From NCBI GenBank assembly GCA_964534625.1, contig CAZHRF010000027.1, forward strand, positions 1 to 43,234: 43,234 nt of DNA, given 5' to 3'. Every line of letters begins with the position of its first letter. The stretch's first letter is position 1. Below the pieces are notes generated by a model. The model was not told where the DNA came from. It made no database searches and saw only the letters and a program-made list of their open reading frames with translations. The DNA comes from an uncultured archaeon. Its GTDB lineage: Archaea; Asgardarchaeota; Heimdallarchaeia; Heimdallarchaeales; Heimdallarchaeaceae. The translations under genes were made by a program, and so were the position numbers. This document shows positions 1 through 43,234 of this stretch, in pieces.

Positions 1-1476
1 GAACGGGAGAAAATTAAGAGTCGATATGCCAATATGATTACTATAGCTGAATCTGAGGAACGGATTACCCAGATAGTCATGGACGTCCTTGATCATTATG
101 AAGAACATATTGCTCCTAATGGTTTTAAAGCTCAAGTTGTTGCTGTTAGTCGCCGTGCTGCTGCGCTCTATAAAACCAAGATTGACGAATTAAATGGTCC
201 TGAATGTACTGTTATTTACTCTGGTGATCATAATGATGAATACTTCTTGAAACAGTTTCATAAAAAAGATACCGAGATTAGTCATCTTATCGATCGTTTC
301 CAAAAACCTTTAGATGAAGACCCTTTAGCTATCCTCATTGTTTGTGATATGCTTATTACTGGTTTTGATGCTCCAATTGAACAAGTGATGTATTTAGACA
401 AGCCTTTGAAAGAACATAACCTTCTTCAAGCTATAGCTCGTGTTAACCGTCCGTCTTCTGGTAAACATTATGGTCTTATAGTTGACTATTATGGTATCTC
501 TGGCAATCTTTCTGATGCTTTAGATATGTTTAGCAAGAAAGATGTCCAAAATGCTCTTCGTCCGTTAGAAGAAGAACTCCCTCGTTTAGAAACTCGTCAT
601 CGTAAAGTTATGTCTTTCTTTGATGGAGTGGATCTTACTGATACTGAAGCTTGCTTGAACATTCTTGAGCCTGAGGATGTTCGTTTAAAATTTGATGTAG
701 CTTTTAGGAAATTTGCTATCAGTCTTGATATGCTTCTTCCTCACCCTAAAGCCAATCCCTATCTTCCTGATTTGAAATTATTAGGTAAAATCAAACAAGC
801 AGCGAGTAATATGTACAGAGATTCTGATATTGATATTAGTGGATGTGGGCAAAAAGTTCGTGAACTCATCGATAAATATATTCGAGCAGAAGGGGTAGAA
901 CATCTCCAGAAAGAACCTGTTTCTATTTTAGATGAAAATTTTGAAGAAACTGTCCAACAACGTAAATCCGCTGAGACCAAAGCCAGTGAAATGGAACACG
1001 CTATTCGCTATGAAATTACTGTTCGTCTCAAAGAAAACCCTGTTGTGTATCGTTCTCTTAAAGAACGGTTAGAAGAACTTATTGAGGCTAAACGTCAACA
1101 TCGTATTGAACTGGCTCAACTTATAGAAGAATATGGTTTACTGATCCAAAGAATTCGTTCTGTTTATAAAGGTACAGAAGCTAAGAAAATGGGTATGAAC
1201 GATACTGAATATGCCTTTTATAATATAATAGCTGAGGAAGCTTCAGAATGTTTGAAAGAGGATAAAGCACCCAACAAAGAGGCTCTTAAAAAACTCACTC
1301 AATCTCTTGTTTCCGACTTACAAGATCTTGCTGTAATTGATTTCCGTAAGAAGCGAAGTGTTCAAAAGAAGATGAAGGCAAAAATTAGACGTGTATTAAT
1401 GAGTAAAGGATGGGAGTATGAACAATTGGACTCTATTACCACTCGCATTATGGAATTAGCAGAGGTAAGATTTTAG
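1..1476 (+). CDS. hsdR: Type I restriction enzyme R subunit (HsdR), C-terminal part; 5'-truncated by the window edge
   Basis: Frame is open from base 1. Helicase-C motifs KAQVVAVSR, IVCDMLITGFDAP, MYLDKPLKEHNLLQAIARVNR and YGLIVDYYG are typical of HsdR, followed by a helical C-terminal tail. Confidence 0.93.
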   Translation, partial: EREKIKSRYANMITIAESEERITQIVMDVLDHYEEHIAPNGFKAQVVAVSRRAAALYKTKIDELNGPECTVIYSGDHNDEYFLKQFHKKDTEISHLIDRFQKPLDEDPLAILIVCDMLITGFDAPIEQVMYLDKPLKEHNLLQAIARVNRPSSGKHYGLIVDYYGISGNLSDALDMFSKKDVQNALRPLEEELPRLETRHRKVMSFFDGVDLTDTEACLNILEPEDVRLKFDVAFRKFAISLDMLLPHPKANPYLPDLKLLGKIKQAASNMYRDSDIDISGCGQKVRELIDKYIRAEGVEHLQKEPVSILDENFEETVQQRKSAETKASEMEHAIRYEITVRLKENPVVYRSLKERLEELIEAKRQHRIELAQLIEEYGLLIQRIRSVYKGTEAKKMGMNDTEYAFYNIIAEEASECLKEDKAPNKEALKKLTQSLVSDLQDLAVIDFRKKRSVQKKMKAKIRRVLMSKGWEYEQLDSITTRIMELAEVRF

Positions 1477-1477
1477 C

Positions 1478-40302: not shown

Positions 40303-43118
40303 GCTACCAACTCCATTATTGTTGTTTTGGATTGTTCTGATAGAGTAAGGATTTGAACTCGCTCTTTCGTGTGAAGATAATGAATAAAAGATAATACAAA
40401 GACAAGTAGGATCGAAATAACTGTCATGATAGAAACAAAGGTTAGAGAAAGGGGGAAAAGGTGGATTCTAAGTGGAATATTGTAATATTTACGTTTGCTT
40501 ATAATAAGGAAAAATTTCACCATACCCAATGAAAATATAAAAGAAACAAGATTCAATACGATAACCATAAGTGTTACTGAGAGAGAGGAGAGCATAATTC
40601 CTTGCTTCGATTTTAGTCCTTTTGAATATAATATTGATAATTTAGAATATAGCTCATCTAAGTTTTGTTTTGCATAGAGTATTATATAGATAGAGACAAA
40701 AATAACTCCAAGCGATAAACTAATGGTTTGAACAATAATCATTTCAGGAGTGGCATAAGGATGTAAATATTGATAAAGATAGTAATCCCCAAAATCAAGG
40801 AGAGTAATGTCTAGCTGATATTTATTGTTAAGAAAGTTAAGGTAATTGCTAAATTCATTCTTTGAAATATTATCTGGAAGCAAGATGTGGCGATAGGTTG
40901 ACCAAAGACCAACTTTTGTAAAATTAGATTCAAACTCCGTAGTGGTTAAAAGCATATTTTGGTCCTTACTAGTTTCTAAAGACATAAGCCAAGAGAAAAA
41001 AGGAATAAAAAGCCCAATGTCTGCAATACTAATGTTATAGGTGGTCTGATAAGTCTGAAAAGTATCTTTTGATCCTGTAACAAAGTCACTAGTATATTCG
41101 TGATTGGCTTTCATATTTGTTAATTCTGCGTGTTTTTTATTAATAATACAGCTTTTGTTTGAATTGAGGAATAAATCTTTTGGGAAATGGTCGTGTTTTA
41201 AACCCTTATAGTTTTTCATAGGAGCTTGTGAAGAAAAGCTATCAATATCAGTAATATTTAAGAAAAACCAATATCCATGAACCTCTTCCGTTTCTATATA
41301 CCAACCGACTTTTCTAGTAACTAATTGAATATGTTTGGATAGATAAACATCTATTTTCTCTTGAGTCATATTGTTAAGAAAAAAGTTGACATAGTTGGTA
41401 TTTTCAGGGGGAAATTCTATTGTTACATCATAAAATTGATTTAAAGAAACATTTCGTGATCGATAATGGCTGAATGAGTCAATAGATAATAAAGGAACAG
41501 AAATTATTAATGAAAATAATACAATGATCCACGCTCTCTTGATGGTTTTTCGGAGAGTAAATTCAAAAGTGTACCTGATATATTTATTGATTTTAACTAA
41601 AGAGCTAACTAAATGTGCAATTAGTACCCCAAAAAATTGAAGATAGTTTCTAAGAAAAATATATATTAGTGCTGTAATTAGCACTAAAATGGTAACAACA
41701 ATGCTAATTATTAGTAAATATAATCCCTCCATGATTATGTTATTGGCAAATAAAAAAATAGTAGTAAAGGTACCTACCATAATGATACCAAAACCAGGCA
41801 GAAACTTTCCTAGGGAATCCTTTACAAGTATTTTTATGAAAGTATTATTTTCTACTTCGGAATTATTATAAGAAAAAGTTCGGATTAGATGCCGAAATTG
41901 AACGAGCATAATTAGAAAATTACTACATATGAGCAATGTAAAAATATAAACAATGAACTGTCCCCAACTGTAAAAAATATCAAACCAGATTAAAAAGGAG
42001 ATACTAAATTCAATTATTAAACAAATGAAAACCACCAATGATGATGTCATAAGGTAGTTCTTTGATGTTTGTTTCATTAAGTCTTGTTTTCTACCGCCTT
42101 TAATAAGAAAATAAGCATATTTGTCTTTTTGTGCTTCATTAAATATTTCTGAAAATCTTTTAAGGAGTAACGAAATAAACCCCAAACAAAGAATTAAGCT
42201 GATATAATAAAGAGAAGGAATAGGTGTATTTTCTCCATAGATATCTGCTAATCTTAAGCTCTTATATAGTGCTTTAGGCATAAAATTCGAAAATAAATCG
42301 TTATAAAGCATTTTAATATATGCAGTGTAATATTGGCTATGTGATTCCAGATGCCGTTTCAATTTAAATGTGGTTTGTTCAAGTATTTCGCTTGCCTTTC
42401 TGGGTCTATACTTTACTAAATAATCATTCTGAAAATCAAATATTGTCCAGTAAACTATTTTAATATCTTCTAGATCGGTACCAACAAAAATTTCTTCAAA
42501 AATTTCTGTTGTTAAAAATAGTGTTGGTGTGATTTTCAACCTGTCTATGAAATAGTTTAATGTATCACTATAGGAGAGATGGTCATTTGTATGTGGCCAA
42601 TATGTTAAAGAGAGATTAGTTGTCTGTTGTACGGTAGAACCAATAGATATTTTAACTGGAATTATTTTTCCTATCGAAAAGGGATCATCTATAGATGAAA
42701 TCATGAATTGGTTTTTTAATAATGAAACATTAAAAAATAATTCATAAAAGGTTGTTGAAGCCCACATTATTGTCATGTGGCTAGAACTCCCATTTATGGT
42801 TGTATTGGCTTCTAAGTGGTGTAAGTACTGAATATGCTCTATTTTATATTCTTCCATAAATTCATTGTTTGTTTCATATTTCCGTTCTTGACATAGCGAA
42901 CCACCTTCTTCAAGAAAAATATAATCTCCAAGATGATTTTCGAGATGATTGCTGTATATATTTTGTTGGTTTATAGGATGGGAGATAAATAATAACGAAA
43001 ATATTAGAGTTGAAAAAATTAAAGGTAATAGTAAATAAAACACATATGCTGTACGATTATTTAACACACGTATAAAGAACGTATCCTTTTTTTCTTTGAC
43101 CATGATAAACCACACCAC
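40299..43118 (-). CDS. Large FtsX/MacB-like ABC permease (paralog)
   Basis: Same topology with IKGG and SKGL motifs; first gene of the three-gene operon. Confidence 0.8.
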   Translation of the reverse strand: MVWFIMVKEKKDTFFIRVLNNRTAYVFYLLLPLIFSTLIFSLLFISHPINQQNIYSNHLENHLGDYIFLEEGGSLCQERKYETNNEFMEEYKIEHIQYLHHLEANTTINGSSSHMTIMWASTTFYELFFNVSLLKNQFMISSIDDPFSIGKIIPVKISIGSTVQQTTNLSLTYWPHTNDHLSYSDTLNYFIDRLKITPTLFLTTEIFEEIFVGTDLEDIKIVYWTIFDFQNDYLVKYRPRKASEILEQTTFKLKRHLESHSQYYTAYIKMLYNDLFSNFMPKALYKSLRLADIYGENTPIPSLYYISLILCLGFISLLLKRFSEIFNEAQKDKYAYFLIKGGRKQDLMKQTSKNYLMTSSLVVFICLIIEFSISFLIWFDIFYSWGQFIVYIFTLLICSNFLIMLVQFRHLIRTFSYNNSEVENNTFIKILVKDSLGKFLPGFGIIMVGTFTTIFLFANNIIMEGLYLLIISIVVTILVLITALIYIFLRNYLQFFGVLIAHLVSSLVKINKYIRYTFEFTLRKTIKRAWIIVLFSLIISVPLLSIDSFSHYRSRNVSLNQFYDVTIEFPPENTNYVNFFLNNMTQEKIDVYLSKHIQLVTRKVGWYIETEEVHGYWFFLNITDIDSFSSQAPMKNYKGLKHDHFPKDLFLNSNKSCIINKKHAELTNMKANHEYTSDFVTGSKDTFQTYQTTYNISIADIGLFIPFFSWLMSLETSKDQNMLLTTTEFESNFTKVGLWSTYRHILLPDNISKNEFSNYLNFLNNKYQLDITLLDFGDYYLYQYLHPYATPEMIIVQTISLSLGVIFVSIYIILYAKQNLDELYSKLSILYSKGLKSKQGIMLSSLSVTLMVIVLNLVSFIFSLGMVKFFLIISKRKYYNIPLRIHLFPLSLTFVSIMTVISILLVFVLSFIHYLHTKERVQILTLSEQSKTTIMELVA

Positions 43119-43234
43119 AATTATATTACAAAAATAGAAAAAAATAAATGTTTATATATTTTTTGGACGATATTTATTATCTGTTCACTAAACCAACATC
43201 GTTAACACTATAAAGAGAAGTTACGCTGAGCAGT

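What the first reader, a model, noticed from the sequence alone, without database searches (positions are those of the whole stretch)
1..43234. The flip appears to repeat as a roughly 10-kb sawtooth across the window
Seen by eye, not computed. The + strand is T-ending at 1-2 kb, rises to A-rich by 9.9 kb and flips. It is T-rich at 10-16.5 kb, drifts to A-rich along the minus-strand protease and rps8e-srp19-gar1, and turns weakly near 20.5 kb. It is T-ending at 21-25 kb, A-ending at 27.5-30.4 kb, and flips near 30.5 kb. It is T-rich at 30.6-34.9 kb, and the P-ATPase drifts from T-ending to A-ending codons along its length. A sharp jump followed by gradual decay is the shape of the replication-associated N-domain skew known in mammalian genomes (fixed initiation, dispersed termination). 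Inference: many closely spaced fixed initiation sites in a probable Asgard genome, with centres at or beside short, highly transcribed genes (rps30e, rps8e operon, tRNA-Gln). This suggests transcription/R-loop-linked initiation or mutagenesis.
Basis: partly seen in the sequence, partly recalled or inferred. Interest (0 to 1): 0.75.

Follow-up and report, generated by a model that had tools for sequence, protein, structure and literature searches.

The report
Mirror-image strand-bias cusps, not replication sawtooth
The window holds two real places (a ribosomal protein gene and a tRNA-Gln pair) where silent codon positions flip from purine-rich to T-rich whichever way the genes point; they belong to about 40 irregularly spaced, mostly tRNA-centred flips per genome in this archaeal family and are not a 10-kb replication sawtooth.

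Summary
I recomputed the + strand (T-A)/(T+A) at four-fold degenerate sites. There is one huge upward flip at 9.91 kb (-0.61 to +0.96), the strongest in the genome. There is a second at the tRNA-Gln pair near 30.3 kb (-0.48 to +0.2). The contig also starts inside a T-rich island (1-2.15 kb). The drift along the giant ORF is real; the 20.5-kb turn and the protease drift are not significant.

Genome-wide, and in a closed genome of another genus, sharp upward flips outnumber downward ones (36:16; 42:8). They decay on both sides within about 3-5 kb. They ignore gene direction and also affect intergenic DNA. They sit preferentially on tRNA genes (mean jump +0.32 and +0.61, against about +0.03 at most other gene boundaries). 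Spacing is irregular (median 29 kb, CV 1.2), with flat stretches of up to about 280 kb.

Chromosomal replication looks ordinary: a Mb-scale GC skew changes sign beside the Orc1/Cdc6 genes. It pairs T with G, whereas the flips pair T with C. The N-domain, many-origins reading is therefore not supported. The link to highly transcribed loci is supported.

The mechanism is unresolved. My best guess is strand-asymmetric purine loss spreading both ways from these loci. This scan noted the same tRNA-anchored flips earlier, on other pieces of this genome and in other Asgard genomes.

The parts
1..2149 (+). T-rich island at four-fold sites (+0.70), covering the C-terminal part of a type I restriction R subunit (1-1476) and a YgjP-like metallopeptidase (1478-2209). 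The contig starts inside it, so any centre lies off the contig.
   Evidence: Segment from change-point analysis. Per-gene four-fold TA skew is 0.74 and 0.56. Pfam matches. Site string.
2678..9802 (+). Giant ORF (2374 aa, no Pfam family). Its + strand four-fold TA skew falls from about +0.2 to -0.44 along the gene, and its last 2 kb form the purine-rich left flank of the 9.9-kb flip.
   Evidence: Slope -0.114 per kb, p=8e-8, robust to codon-box and next-base control. It is the most negative within-gene slope z-score in the genome.
7888..9910 (+). Purine-rich (A and G) left flank of cusp 1; four-fold TA skew -0.61.
   Evidence: Change points at 7.89 kb (LLR 23.5) and 9.91 kb (LLR 72.5). Four-fold GC skew is +0.42 and +0.33 there.
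9869..10072 (+). rpS30e gene. The flip lies between 9910 and 9922, about 45 nt into the gene. It is the strongest up-flip in the genome (-0.75 to +1.00 over 40 sites on each side).
   Evidence: Pfam Ribosomal_S30. Flip table. Sequence.
9922..11682 (+). Almost pure T (with some C) at four-fold sites (+0.96). It covers the rest of rpS30e, the A-depleted spacer 10073-10161 with a T11 tract and (TGCTT)5, and ELP3 (10162-11805) up to about 165 nt before its stop codon.
   Evidence: ELP3 identified by Pfam (Radical_SAM, ELP3_N, GNAT). ELP3 uses CGT 31 times and AGA 0 times and is 13% Ser, whereas 11 same-family orthologues have four-fold TA skew of 0.04-0.24 and use AGA.
11697..13266 (+). Weaker T-rich tail (+0.32) of cusp 1.
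   Evidence: Segment.
27881..30203 (.). Purine-rich + strand (-0.47), shared by two + genes (27421-28827; peptidase A24 28862-29659) and a low-scoring - ORF (29865-30203). This is the left flank of cusp 2.
   Evidence: Pfam.
29687..30549 (-). tRNA-Gln(CTG) at 29687-29761 and tRNA-Gln(TTG) at 30474-30549: the centre of cusp 2. The same tRNA pair is the centre of the strongest sampled cusp in the relative G004, although the neighbouring genes differ.
   Evidence: ARAGORN and Rfam. Jump +0.50 at the TTG gene. In G004 the tRNA-Gln pair has a jump of 1.70.
30696..33000 (-). Weak T-rich right flank of cusp 2 (+0.22 and +0.17 on the + strand), inside minus-strand genes.
38000..40600 (-). A-rich valley on the + strand (-0.26 to -0.45) inside two large minus-strand ORFs without Pfam families. 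It has no sharp edge and is not explained by the cusp model.
   Evidence: The slopes of the two ORFs are not significant.
No significant flip here.
   Evidence: No change point. Bins are -0.01 and -0.21 with 38-67 sites.

Best explanation
The window does not carry a periodic replication sawtooth. It carries two members, and the edge of a possible third, of a genome-wide set of discrete 'cusps'. At fixed loci the strand that runs 5'->3' away from the locus, on either side, is strongly depleted of purines and enriched in T. The effect is seen at silent codon positions, in spacers and, more weakly, in amino-acid-changing positions. It fades within about 2-5 kb.

Shown:
- The effect belongs to the DNA strand, not to the gene.
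- It is centred on tRNA genes and a few other highly expressed genes (here rpS30e; elsewhere actin).
- It has the same polarity in both replication arcs of the relative.
- Its base signature differs from the replichore-scale skew.
- It is partly conserved between genera (tRNA-Gln, tRNA-Lys, actin) and partly lineage-specific (rpS30e-ELP3).

Inferred: the cause is a mutational asymmetry, not selection on codons. Most likely the outward-running strand is recurrently single-stranded around very active transcription units, through transcription bubbles, R-loops or unwinding that spreads from them. It then loses purines, so that A and G are replaced by T, as expected if abasic or oxidised purines are bypassed by insertion of A opposite. 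Selection filters the amino-acid changes. The drift along the giant ORF is simply the decaying left flank of the 9.9-kb cusp.
For: Independent of gene direction:
- Opposite-oriented neighbours have negatively correlated coding-strand four-fold TA skew (r about -0.2 to -0.3), while same-oriented neighbours have r=+0.44.
- Genes confirmed by Pfam carry mirrored skew: GDPD at -0.77 between + genes at +0.6 and +0.73; two PurP genes at -0.5; EF-2 at -0.27.
- At strong cusps in G004, genes pointing toward and away from the tRNA carry the same outward-strand skew (0.44 and 0.45).

Acts on DNA, not only on codons:
- Spacers between convergent or divergent genes follow the skew of their flanks (r=0.29, p=7e-13).
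- The rpS30e-ELP3 spacer is almost free of A.

Shape:
- Up-flips outnumber down-flips: 36:16 in G000; 42:8, or 25:1 at a stricter setting, in G004. Only up-flips have flanks beyond the selection window.

Anchoring:
- Mean jump at tRNA genes is +0.32±0.06 (G000) and +0.61±0.10 (G004), against +0.02 to +0.12 at other boundaries and 0.000 at random positions.
- 14 of 42 up-flips in G004 lie within 1.5 kb of a tRNA, against 2 expected, and two more lie beside tRNA-Ala-like sequence.
- The switch sits on the tRNA gene itself.
- Jump size per anticodon correlates between the two genera (r=0.58, p=2.5e-4).
- The actin 5' end is a centre in both genomes.

Signature:
- In ELP3 the four-fold sites are T 85%, C 10%, A 3%, G 2%, against 41%, 12%, 37% and 10% genome-wide.
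- Derived amino-acid changes go from purine to pyrimidine codons: A>S, I>L, N>H, E>D, K>Q, Y>F.

Not translational selection:
- The most biased genes are ELP3, an HsdR fragment, an ArcS-like gene, AdoHcyase and TPR proteins. Thermosomes (+0.3), EF-1alpha (+0.14) and ribosomal proteins (about +0.12) are only mildly biased.
Against: - The mechanism is not observed directly.
- Long read-through or divergent transcripts are hard to reconcile with the density of oligo-T tracts on the outward strand, given what is known (from my own knowledge) of oligo-T termination by archaeal RNA polymerase. There are 9.5 T>=5 runs per kb at strong cusps in G004, and 19 in the 2.3 kb to the left of the window's tRNA-Gln genes.
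- The flanks are as strong upstream of tRNA genes as downstream.
- High expression alone is not sufficient. EF-2 is mirrored. The rpS30e-ELP3 pair is syntenic in G004, G007 and G001, but G004 shows no cusp there.
- tRNA genes near the origin region lack cusps.
- The T island ends abruptly inside ELP3, not at a transcript end.
- Contigs C26, C45 and C43 carry strand-based skew of about 0.3 over 10-25 kb, longer than the typical cusp.
- The A-rich valley at 38-40.6 kb has no centre.
Confidence: 0.45

Rival explanations
1. Cusp centres are fixed sites of recurrent, short-range, bidirectional DNA synthesis that is not ordinary chromosomal replication. Examples would be synthesis primed from R-loops or recombination intermediates at very active genes. 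The strand leaving the site would be either the newly made one or the exposed lagging-type template.
For: - The polarity is that of a replication bubble.
- The flanks are symmetric and do not depend on the strand of the tRNA gene or of neighbouring genes.
- The kb-scale decay looks like a distribution of tract lengths.
- Oligo-T density argues against long transcripts.
- Some domains reach 10-25 kb.
- Centres are gained and lost between genera while gene order is kept.
Against: - The base signature (T with C) is opposite to that of the replichore-scale skew in the same family (T with G). A different polymerase or a different kind of exposure would have to be assumed.
- There is no direct evidence of initiation.
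- No shared sequence motif or known RNA was found at the non-tRNA centres.
Confidence: 0.2
2. One reading: replication-associated N-domains, produced by many closely and regularly spaced (about 10 kb) fixed replication origins with dispersed termination.
For: - Jumps are sharp and upward, decay is gradual, and the effect ignores gene direction.
- Within the window the autocorrelation peaks at lags 10-11 kb.
Against: - Mb-scale arcs of four-fold GC skew change sign at the Orc1/Cdc6 genes in the closed relative. Dense efficient origins would erase such arcs.
- In G000 the strand-based GC covariance stays flat to 100 kb, while that of TA decays by 30-40 kb.
- The T/C pairing at the flips is opposite to the replichore-scale T/G pairing.
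- Flip spacing is 3-282 kb with CV 1.17.
- The skew returns to zero within 3-5 kb and then stays flat for up to about 280 kb.
- There is no 10-kb peak in the genome-wide covariance.
Confidence: 0.03
3. Selection rather than mutation. Either gene-specific codon dialects are at work (for example, ELP3 avoiding A-ending codons that need Elongator-modified tRNAs), or there is selection for oligo-T terminator-rich buffer zones that insulate neighbours from very active promoters.
For: - ELP3 avoids NNA codons in every codon box and shifts AAA, GAA and CAA towards the G-ending codon.
- Outward strands are dense in T>=5 runs.
- The sense strand of the HsdR fragment is T-rich at four-fold sites yet has no T>=5 run.
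Against: - Mirrored skew in oppositely oriented genes is costly and is not explained by codon selection.
- Spacers share the skew.
- Near-saturation over several kb far exceeds what termination would need.
- The island boundary lies inside ELP3.
- The ELP3 orthologues show no such bias.
Confidence: 0.1
4. Artefact of amino-acid content, gene-calling errors or chance.
For: - All-third-position counts are confounded by K/E/Q against N/D/F/Y content.
- My gene caller is crude.
Against: - The analysis is restricted to four-fold sites and controls for codon box and next base.
- Permutation gives a maximum LLR of 6.7, against 23-72 observed.
- The mirrored genes are confirmed by Pfam.
- Restricting to high-confidence genes keeps the effect.
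- The pattern is replicated in a second genome.
Confidence: 0.02

Closest known systems
Replication-associated skew N-domains and upward S-jumps of mammalian genomes (recalled from my own knowledge: Touchon et al. 2005, Huvet et al. 2007)
   Same: - Sharp upward jumps with gradual decay.
- Independent of gene direction.
- Jumps often lie beside active promoters.
   Different: - Here the decay reaches zero within 3-5 kb and flat regions follow.
- Spacing is irregular.
- T pairs with C, not with G.
- The same family shows ordinary Mb-scale replichores.
Transcription-associated strand asymmetry at 5' ends of genes (Polak & Arndt 2008, cited in the review PMC10030826; see also PMC2927911)
   Same: - A step at the start of active transcription units, decaying over 1-2 kb.
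- An opposite sign upstream, where divergent transcription occurs.
- Usually explained by single-strandedness of the non-template strand.
   Different: - The signature there is excess G+T on the coding strand, attributed to deamination. Here purines are replaced by T, and C exceeds G.
- The amplitude is far larger here (four-fold TA skew up to ±0.9).
- Oppositely oriented genes are overwritten.
- tRNA genes are the main anchors.
Prokaryotic origin/terminus skew switches beside Orc1/Cdc6 (classical archaeal oriC signature)
   Same: A sign change of a strand-based skew at a fixed point.
   Different: - That signal exists separately in this family: the four-fold GC skew changes sign near 1.9 Mb in G004, beside the Orc1/Cdc6 genes.
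- It persists over Mb, whereas the cusps are local, number about 40 per genome and have the opposite T/C-G pairing.
Bidirectional (divergent) prokaryotic promoters arising from promoter sequence symmetry (PMC10268837, PMC12825309; these cite Warman et al. 2021)
   Same: They would supply outward transcription on both sides of a strong promoter, which is the geometry of a cusp.
   Different: - No mutational footprint has been described for them.
- Transcripts of several kb across about 10 oligo-T tracts per kb seem unlikely.
GRINS, genetic repeats of intense nucleotide skews
   Same: Short stretches of intense skew inside genes.
   Different: - As I recall, GRINS are repeats within polyketide synthase genes and are linked to gene conversion.
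- The cusps here are not repeats: comparison of the centres with each other found only tRNA and orthologue matches.

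Membership tests
Replication N-domains (many fixed origins, dispersed termination) | Sharp upward skew jumps with gradual decay, and no sharp downward jumps | tested here: met
   Up-flips against down-flips: 36:16 in G000; 42:8 and 25:1 in G004. 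Only up-flips have extended flanks.
Replication N-domains (many fixed origins, dispersed termination) | Skew declines roughly linearly from one jump to the next, so that domains tile the region | tested here: not met
   Flanks reach zero within 3-5 kb, and flat stretches of up to about 280 kb separate the cusps.
Replication N-domains (many fixed origins, dispersed termination) | Same base signature as the organism's replication-fork asymmetry | tested here: not met
   At the cusps T pairs with C (cross-covariance -0.13 at under 2 kb). At replichore scale T pairs with G (+0.01 at 100-200 kb; the arc means have the same sign).
Replication N-domains (many fixed origins, dispersed termination) | Jumps coincide with mapped replication initiation | not testable with these tools
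Regular (periodic) sawtooth of about 10 kb | Characteristic spacing of the jumps | tested here: not met
   The window has a lag-10 autocorrelation of 0.43. Genome-wide the covariance is monotonic. Flip spacing in G004 is 3-282 kb, median 29 kb, CV 1.17.
Classical archaeal origin (oriC) skew switch | Skew sign change that persists over a replichore, adjacent to orc1/cdc6 | tested here: not met
   The window has no Orc1/Cdc6 gene; those of G000 lie on C1 and C2. The replichore-scale switch of the relative is at about 1.9 Mb, beside Orc1/Cdc6.
Transcription-associated strand asymmetry | Polarity follows the direction of each gene's own transcription | tested here: not met
   Oppositely oriented genes carry the mirrored skew at full strength.
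Transcription-associated strand asymmetry | Anchored at starts of highly transcribed units | tested here: met
   The centres are tRNA genes, rpS30e and actin. Expression was inferred from gene identity, not measured.
Transcription-associated strand asymmetry | Strength scales with expression level | tested here: inconclusive
   Thermosomes, EF-1alpha and ribosomal proteins are only +0.1 to +0.3, and EF-2 is -0.27. The syntenic rpS30e-ELP3 pair has no cusp in G004. No expression data are available.
Translational-selection codon bias | Bias tied to the coding strand, strongest in the most highly expressed genes, and absent from non-coding DNA | tested here: not met
   Genes carry mirrored skew, the most biased genes are ELP3, HsdR and similar, and spacers share the skew.

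The most novel reading that the evidence does not exclude
In this Asgard family, tRNA genes and a few other very active loci are fixed sites of a recurrent, bidirectional DNA transaction that is distinct from chromosomal replication. Candidates are R-loop- or recombination-primed strand-displacement synthesis, or long-lived unwinding. This transaction would overwrite the base composition, and even the protein sequences, of whatever lies within a few kb. [quoted passage not shown]
Probability: 0.25. Interest if true: 0.9.

Novelty: new variant of a known kind. Interest (0 to 1): 0.68.

Why it matters
Skew jumps are routinely read as replication origins. Here that reading would be wrong. The same family has ordinary Mb-scale replichores, plus about 40 local flips per genome that are anchored on tRNA genes and carry a different base signature.

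The flips are strong enough to recode whole genes. ELP3 has no AGA codon, is 13% Ser and has four-fold TA skew of 0.93. They also shift protein composition, so they matter for several practical tasks in Asgard genomes: codon-usage-based expression prediction, detection of horizontal transfer, binning and phylogenetics.

If the cause is single-strandedness or DNA synthesis that starts at highly transcribed loci, these genomes carry a natural, readable record of transcription-linked genome instability. I found no description of this in the searchable literature. Other readers and follow-up agents of this scan have already noted it.

Tried and rejected
- The search for related loci on genome contigs with ELP3 returned only a 46%-identical Thermoplasmatales contig and no taxon name for the window.
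The chromosome map covers 2.8 of 3.08 Mb.
- I first took the negative within-gene slope in both gene orientations as a test between replication and gene-anchored gradients. It is not a test, because the slope is invariant under reverse complement. The same holds for orienting flips by tRNA strand.
- Flanks of 48 T-biased 'anchor' genes suggested that there is no mirrored upstream side. That selection was biased towards island interiors, and the flip-centred and tRNA-centred profiles supersede it.
- Binary segmentation did not split 13-43 kb. It has little power for bump-shaped islands, so the tRNA-Gln cusp was assessed from bin counts and the tRNA jump table.
- Rfam found nothing at six non-tRNA flips of G004 and only the two tRNAs in the window.
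- BLAST of tRNAs against flip centres found no tRNA fragment at the 9.9-kb flip.
- Double-strand break plus resection was considered and set aside. If damage to the exposed 3' tails drives the bias, the predicted polarity is the opposite of what is seen. This is reasoning, not a test.
- Horizontal transfer or contamination as the source of the T islands was rejected. ELP3 is equidistant from its family orthologues (64%, against 69% among the others), and the islands hold core genes: IDH, aconitase, ATP-citrate lyase, PurP and actin.
- One Pfam call failed on a coordinate slip and was rerun for the actin gene only.

Full report
**Material and method.** The window is the entire contig C27 of a 3.37-Mb, 120-contig, 32% GC assembly. 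No gene finder is on offer, so I wrote a simple codon-usage ORF caller. It gave 2728 genes and 86% coding sequence. I then analysed only four-fold degenerate third positions, which removes the amino-acid confound of counting 'A-ending' against 'T-ending' codons. The skew is (T-A)/(T+A), written TA4; the analogous GC skew at these sites is GC4. It is expressed either on the coding strand or on the + strand. Genome-wide, coding-strand TA4 is +0.04 and GC4 is -0.11.

**What is in the window.**
- Per-kb + strand TA4 and the raw string of four-fold bases show 24-2149 at +0.70.
- A decline runs along the 2374-aa ORF, from about +0.2 to -0.44.
- 7888-9910 is at -0.61.
- A flip between 9910 and 9922, about 45 nt inside rpS30e, leads to +0.96.
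- That level lasts to about 11.68 kb, roughly 165 nt before the ELP3 stop codon. A tail of +0.32 then runs to 13.27 kb.
- Change-point log-likelihood ratios are 23-72, against a permutation maximum of 6.7.
- The spacer between rpS30e and ELP3 is itself almost free of A.
- A second feature is the purine-rich + strand at 27.9-30.2 kb (-0.47), spanning + genes and a - ORF. It ends at the tRNA-Gln(CTG)/tRNA-Gln(TTG) pair and is followed by +0.2 in minus-strand genes.
- The giant-ORF drift is robust to control for codon box and next base (-0.107 per kb, p=4e-7). The P-ATPase drift is marginal (p=0.03). The protease drift and the 20.5-kb 'turn' are not significant.
- A lag-10-kb autocorrelation of 0.43 exists in the window, but it rests on five patches.

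**The bias belongs to the DNA strand.**
- Across the genome, neighbouring genes on the same strand have correlated coding-strand TA4 (r=0.44). Neighbours on opposite strands are anti-correlated: r=-0.20 overall, and -0.20 and -0.30 for convergent and divergent pairs among high-confidence genes.
- Decomposing the covariances into a gene-linked part and a strand-linked part shows that the strand-linked part dominates.
- Mirrored genes are real. A GDPD gene (Pfam 5e-37) has TA4 of -0.77 between + genes at +0.60 and +0.73. Two PurP genes at -0.5 sit among + genes at +0.4 to +0.5. EF-2 is at -0.27.
- Spacers between convergent or divergent genes follow their flanks (r=0.29, p=7e-13).
- The most biased genes are not the classic highly expressed ones: ELP3 (0.93, the genome maximum), an HsdR fragment, an ArcS-like gene, AdoHcyase and TPR proteins. 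Thermosomes, EF-1alpha and ribosomal proteins are only +0.1 to +0.3.
- ELP3 uses CGT 31 times and AGA never, and is 13% Ser. Eleven same-family orthologues have TA4 of 0.04-0.24 and use AGA. Its protein is only slightly more diverged than the others are from each other (64% against 69%), and its derived replacements run from purine to pyrimidine codons.
- Translational selection, foreign origin and amino-acid content therefore do not explain the pattern.

**Shape and anchoring.**
- I scanned for places where 40 A/T four-fold sites on the left are at or below -0.4 and 40 on the right are at or above +0.4. This gave 36 upward and 16 downward flips.
- Only the upward flips have flanks beyond the selection window. 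On the left these are -0.29, -0.16, -0.12 and -0.07; on the right +0.24, +0.16 and about +0.09, out to 5 kb. GC4 has the opposite sign. The window's 9.9-kb flip is the strongest of all.
- An upward flip is invariant under reverse complement, so it carries no information about gene or tRNA orientation. Several of my early 'orientation' tests were therefore uninformative.
- The mean jump at the 46 tRNA genes found with intron search is +0.32±0.06. It is +0.03 to +0.04 at tandem and convergent boundaries, +0.12 at divergent ones and 0.000 at random positions.
- After subtraction of the genome-wide meta-gene gradient, the residual upstream of tRNAs is -0.12 for both co-oriented and anti-oriented genes. 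Downstream it is +0.09 to +0.30.

**A closed relative.** G004 is a single 3.08-Mb contig of another genus in the same family. I fetched its first 2.8 Mb and ran the same pipeline on it.
- Replication looks ordinary. Strand-based GC4 is -0.034±0.010 over 0.5-1.9 Mb and +0.042±0.010 over the rest (p=5e-8). The sign change near 1.9 Mb is where two Orc1/Cdc6 genes (1,898.5 and 1,988 kb) and the 16S gene (1,929 kb) lie.
- At this scale TA4 is tiny and has the same sign as GC4.
- Superimposed on this are 42 upward and 8 downward flips (25 against 1 at a stricter setting). They are equally frequent in both arcs (23 and 19). Spacing is 3-282 kb, with median 29 kb and CV 1.17.
- The mean jump at 43 tRNA genes is +0.61±0.10, against +0.02 to +0.04 at other boundaries. 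Fourteen of the 42 up-flips lie within 1.5 kb of a tRNA (2 expected), and two more lie beside tRNA-Ala-like sequence.
- The flanks are symmetric about the tRNA whatever its strand: upstream -0.35 to -0.15 out to 5 kb, downstream +0.34 to +0.16 out to 3 kb. In 100-bp bins the switch sits on the tRNA gene itself.
- Genes pointing toward and away from the tRNA carry the same outward-strand skew (0.44 and 0.45).
- The TA-GC cross-covariance is -0.13 at under 2 kb (T with C) and +0.01 at 100-200 kb (T with G).
- The strongest sampled cusp of G004 lies at the same tRNA-Gln(CTG)/(TTG) pair as the window's second cusp, although the neighbouring genes differ.
- Jump size per anticodon correlates between the two genera (r=0.58, p=2.5e-4).
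- A non-tRNA centre, the 5' end of an actin gene, is shared by both genomes.
- In contrast, rpS30e-ELP3 is syntenic in G004, G007 and G001, yet G004 shows no flip there. The window's main cusp is therefore specific to this lineage.

**Interpretation.**
- The N-domain, many-origins reading fails on four counts: spacing, the absence of tiling, the base signature and the existence of Mb-scale replichores.
- What remains is a process that spreads both ways from particular loci, mostly very actively transcribed ones. It makes the outward-running strand lose A and G in favour of T.
- That geometry fits the non-template strands of divergent transcription or R-loops. It also fits the exposed strands of a small replication-like bubble.
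- Replacement of purines by T is what bypass of abasic or oxidised purines would give. This is inference from general knowledge, not something tested here.
- Against simple read-through transcription stand about 10 oligo-T tracts per kb on the outward strand, the equal strength upstream of tRNAs, the mirrored EF-2, the missing cusp at the syntenic rpS30e of G004, and the island edge inside ELP3.
- Against replication-like synthesis stands the opposite T/C-G pairing.
- I therefore commit, at moderate confidence, to strand-asymmetric mutagenesis linked to single-strandedness around these loci. Local non-replicative DNA synthesis is the main rival.
- Three things remain unexplained: the 10-25-kb domains on C26, C45 and C43; the cusp-free tRNA genes near the origin region; and the A-rich valley at 38-40.6 kb.

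**Literature and earlier notes.**
- Full-text searches found no description of tRNA-anchored skew flips in Asgard or other archaea.
- The nearest concepts are TSS-proximal transcription-associated asymmetry (review PMC10030826) and bidirectional prokaryotic promoters.
- Earlier notes of this scan had already flagged such flips at tRNA-Lys genes on another piece of this genome and in other Asgard genomes. Follow-up agents there had likewise concluded that they are not origins or termini.
- I re-measured the tRNA-Lys(UUU) and tRNA-Lys(CUU) cases here; the jumps are 1.57 and 1.03.

Noticed in passing
window 20600-22600: Translations suggest fragments of a class I aminoacyl-tRNA synthetase N-terminus in two frames (21051-21248 and 21260-21673). 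They are followed by a minus-strand ORF with a Cys-rich, TnpB-like zinc-ribbon look (22169-22543). GC rises to 0.42. This looks like a broken gene next to a transposon relic. It was judged by eye only.
   Followed up: no
window 10073-10161: The rpS30e-ELP3 spacer has a T11 tract, five tandem TGCTT units and a T8 tract, and almost no A. The extreme T bias continues unchanged across these terminator-like tracts.
   Followed up: partly
window 12398-12445: A short tandem-like motif (ataggtcataagtt / ataagtt units) lies in the spacer after the 195-aa membrane-like ORF 11802-12389.
   Followed up: no
window 10162-11805: ELP3 modifies the wobble U of tRNAs that read A-ending codons (from my own knowledge). 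It is itself the gene most depleted of A-ending codons in the genome. The mirrored neighbours elsewhere suggest this is probably a coincidence of location, but it is a curious one.
   Followed up: partly
window 2678-9802, 37657-40302 and 40299-43118: Three very large ORFs (2374, 881 and 939 aa) have no Pfam family. The two minus-strand ones overlap by 4 nt, have low coding scores in my caller and have pyrimidine-rich coding strands.
   Followed up: no
G000 genome-wide; G004: Coding-strand TA4 declines from about +0.09 near the 5' end of genes to about -0.05 at the 3' end, scaling with gene length. GC4 rises in parallel. The decline is weaker in G004. It may be the sum of many small cusps at gene boundaries.
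   Followed up: partly
G000 C26:1-25000, C45:7400-23487, C43, C13:24800-34400: Strand-based TA4 of 0.3-0.8 extends over 10-25 kb across genes of both orientations, including IDH, aconitases, ATP-citrate lyase and PurP. This is much longer than the typical cusp flank.
   Followed up: partly
G000 C1 (tRNAs at 26-153 kb); G004 1.86-1.94 Mb: tRNA genes in the region that carries Orc1/Cdc6, the rRNA genes and the ribosomal-protein operons mostly lack cusps, whereas tRNA genes elsewhere have them.
   Followed up: partly
G004 tRNA flanks (±3 kb): At strong cusps 60% of coding sites point away from the tRNA. At cusp-free tRNAs only 32% do.
   Followed up: no
G004 C1:1,147,752-1,154,401 (L026:7752-14401): A duplicated cassette lies in the T-rich flank of the tRNA-Gln cusp. 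It consists of a KaiC-like ATPase, an 82-aa thioredoxin/KaiB-like gene and Orn/Arg-decarboxylase(-KaiC) genes.
   Followed up: no
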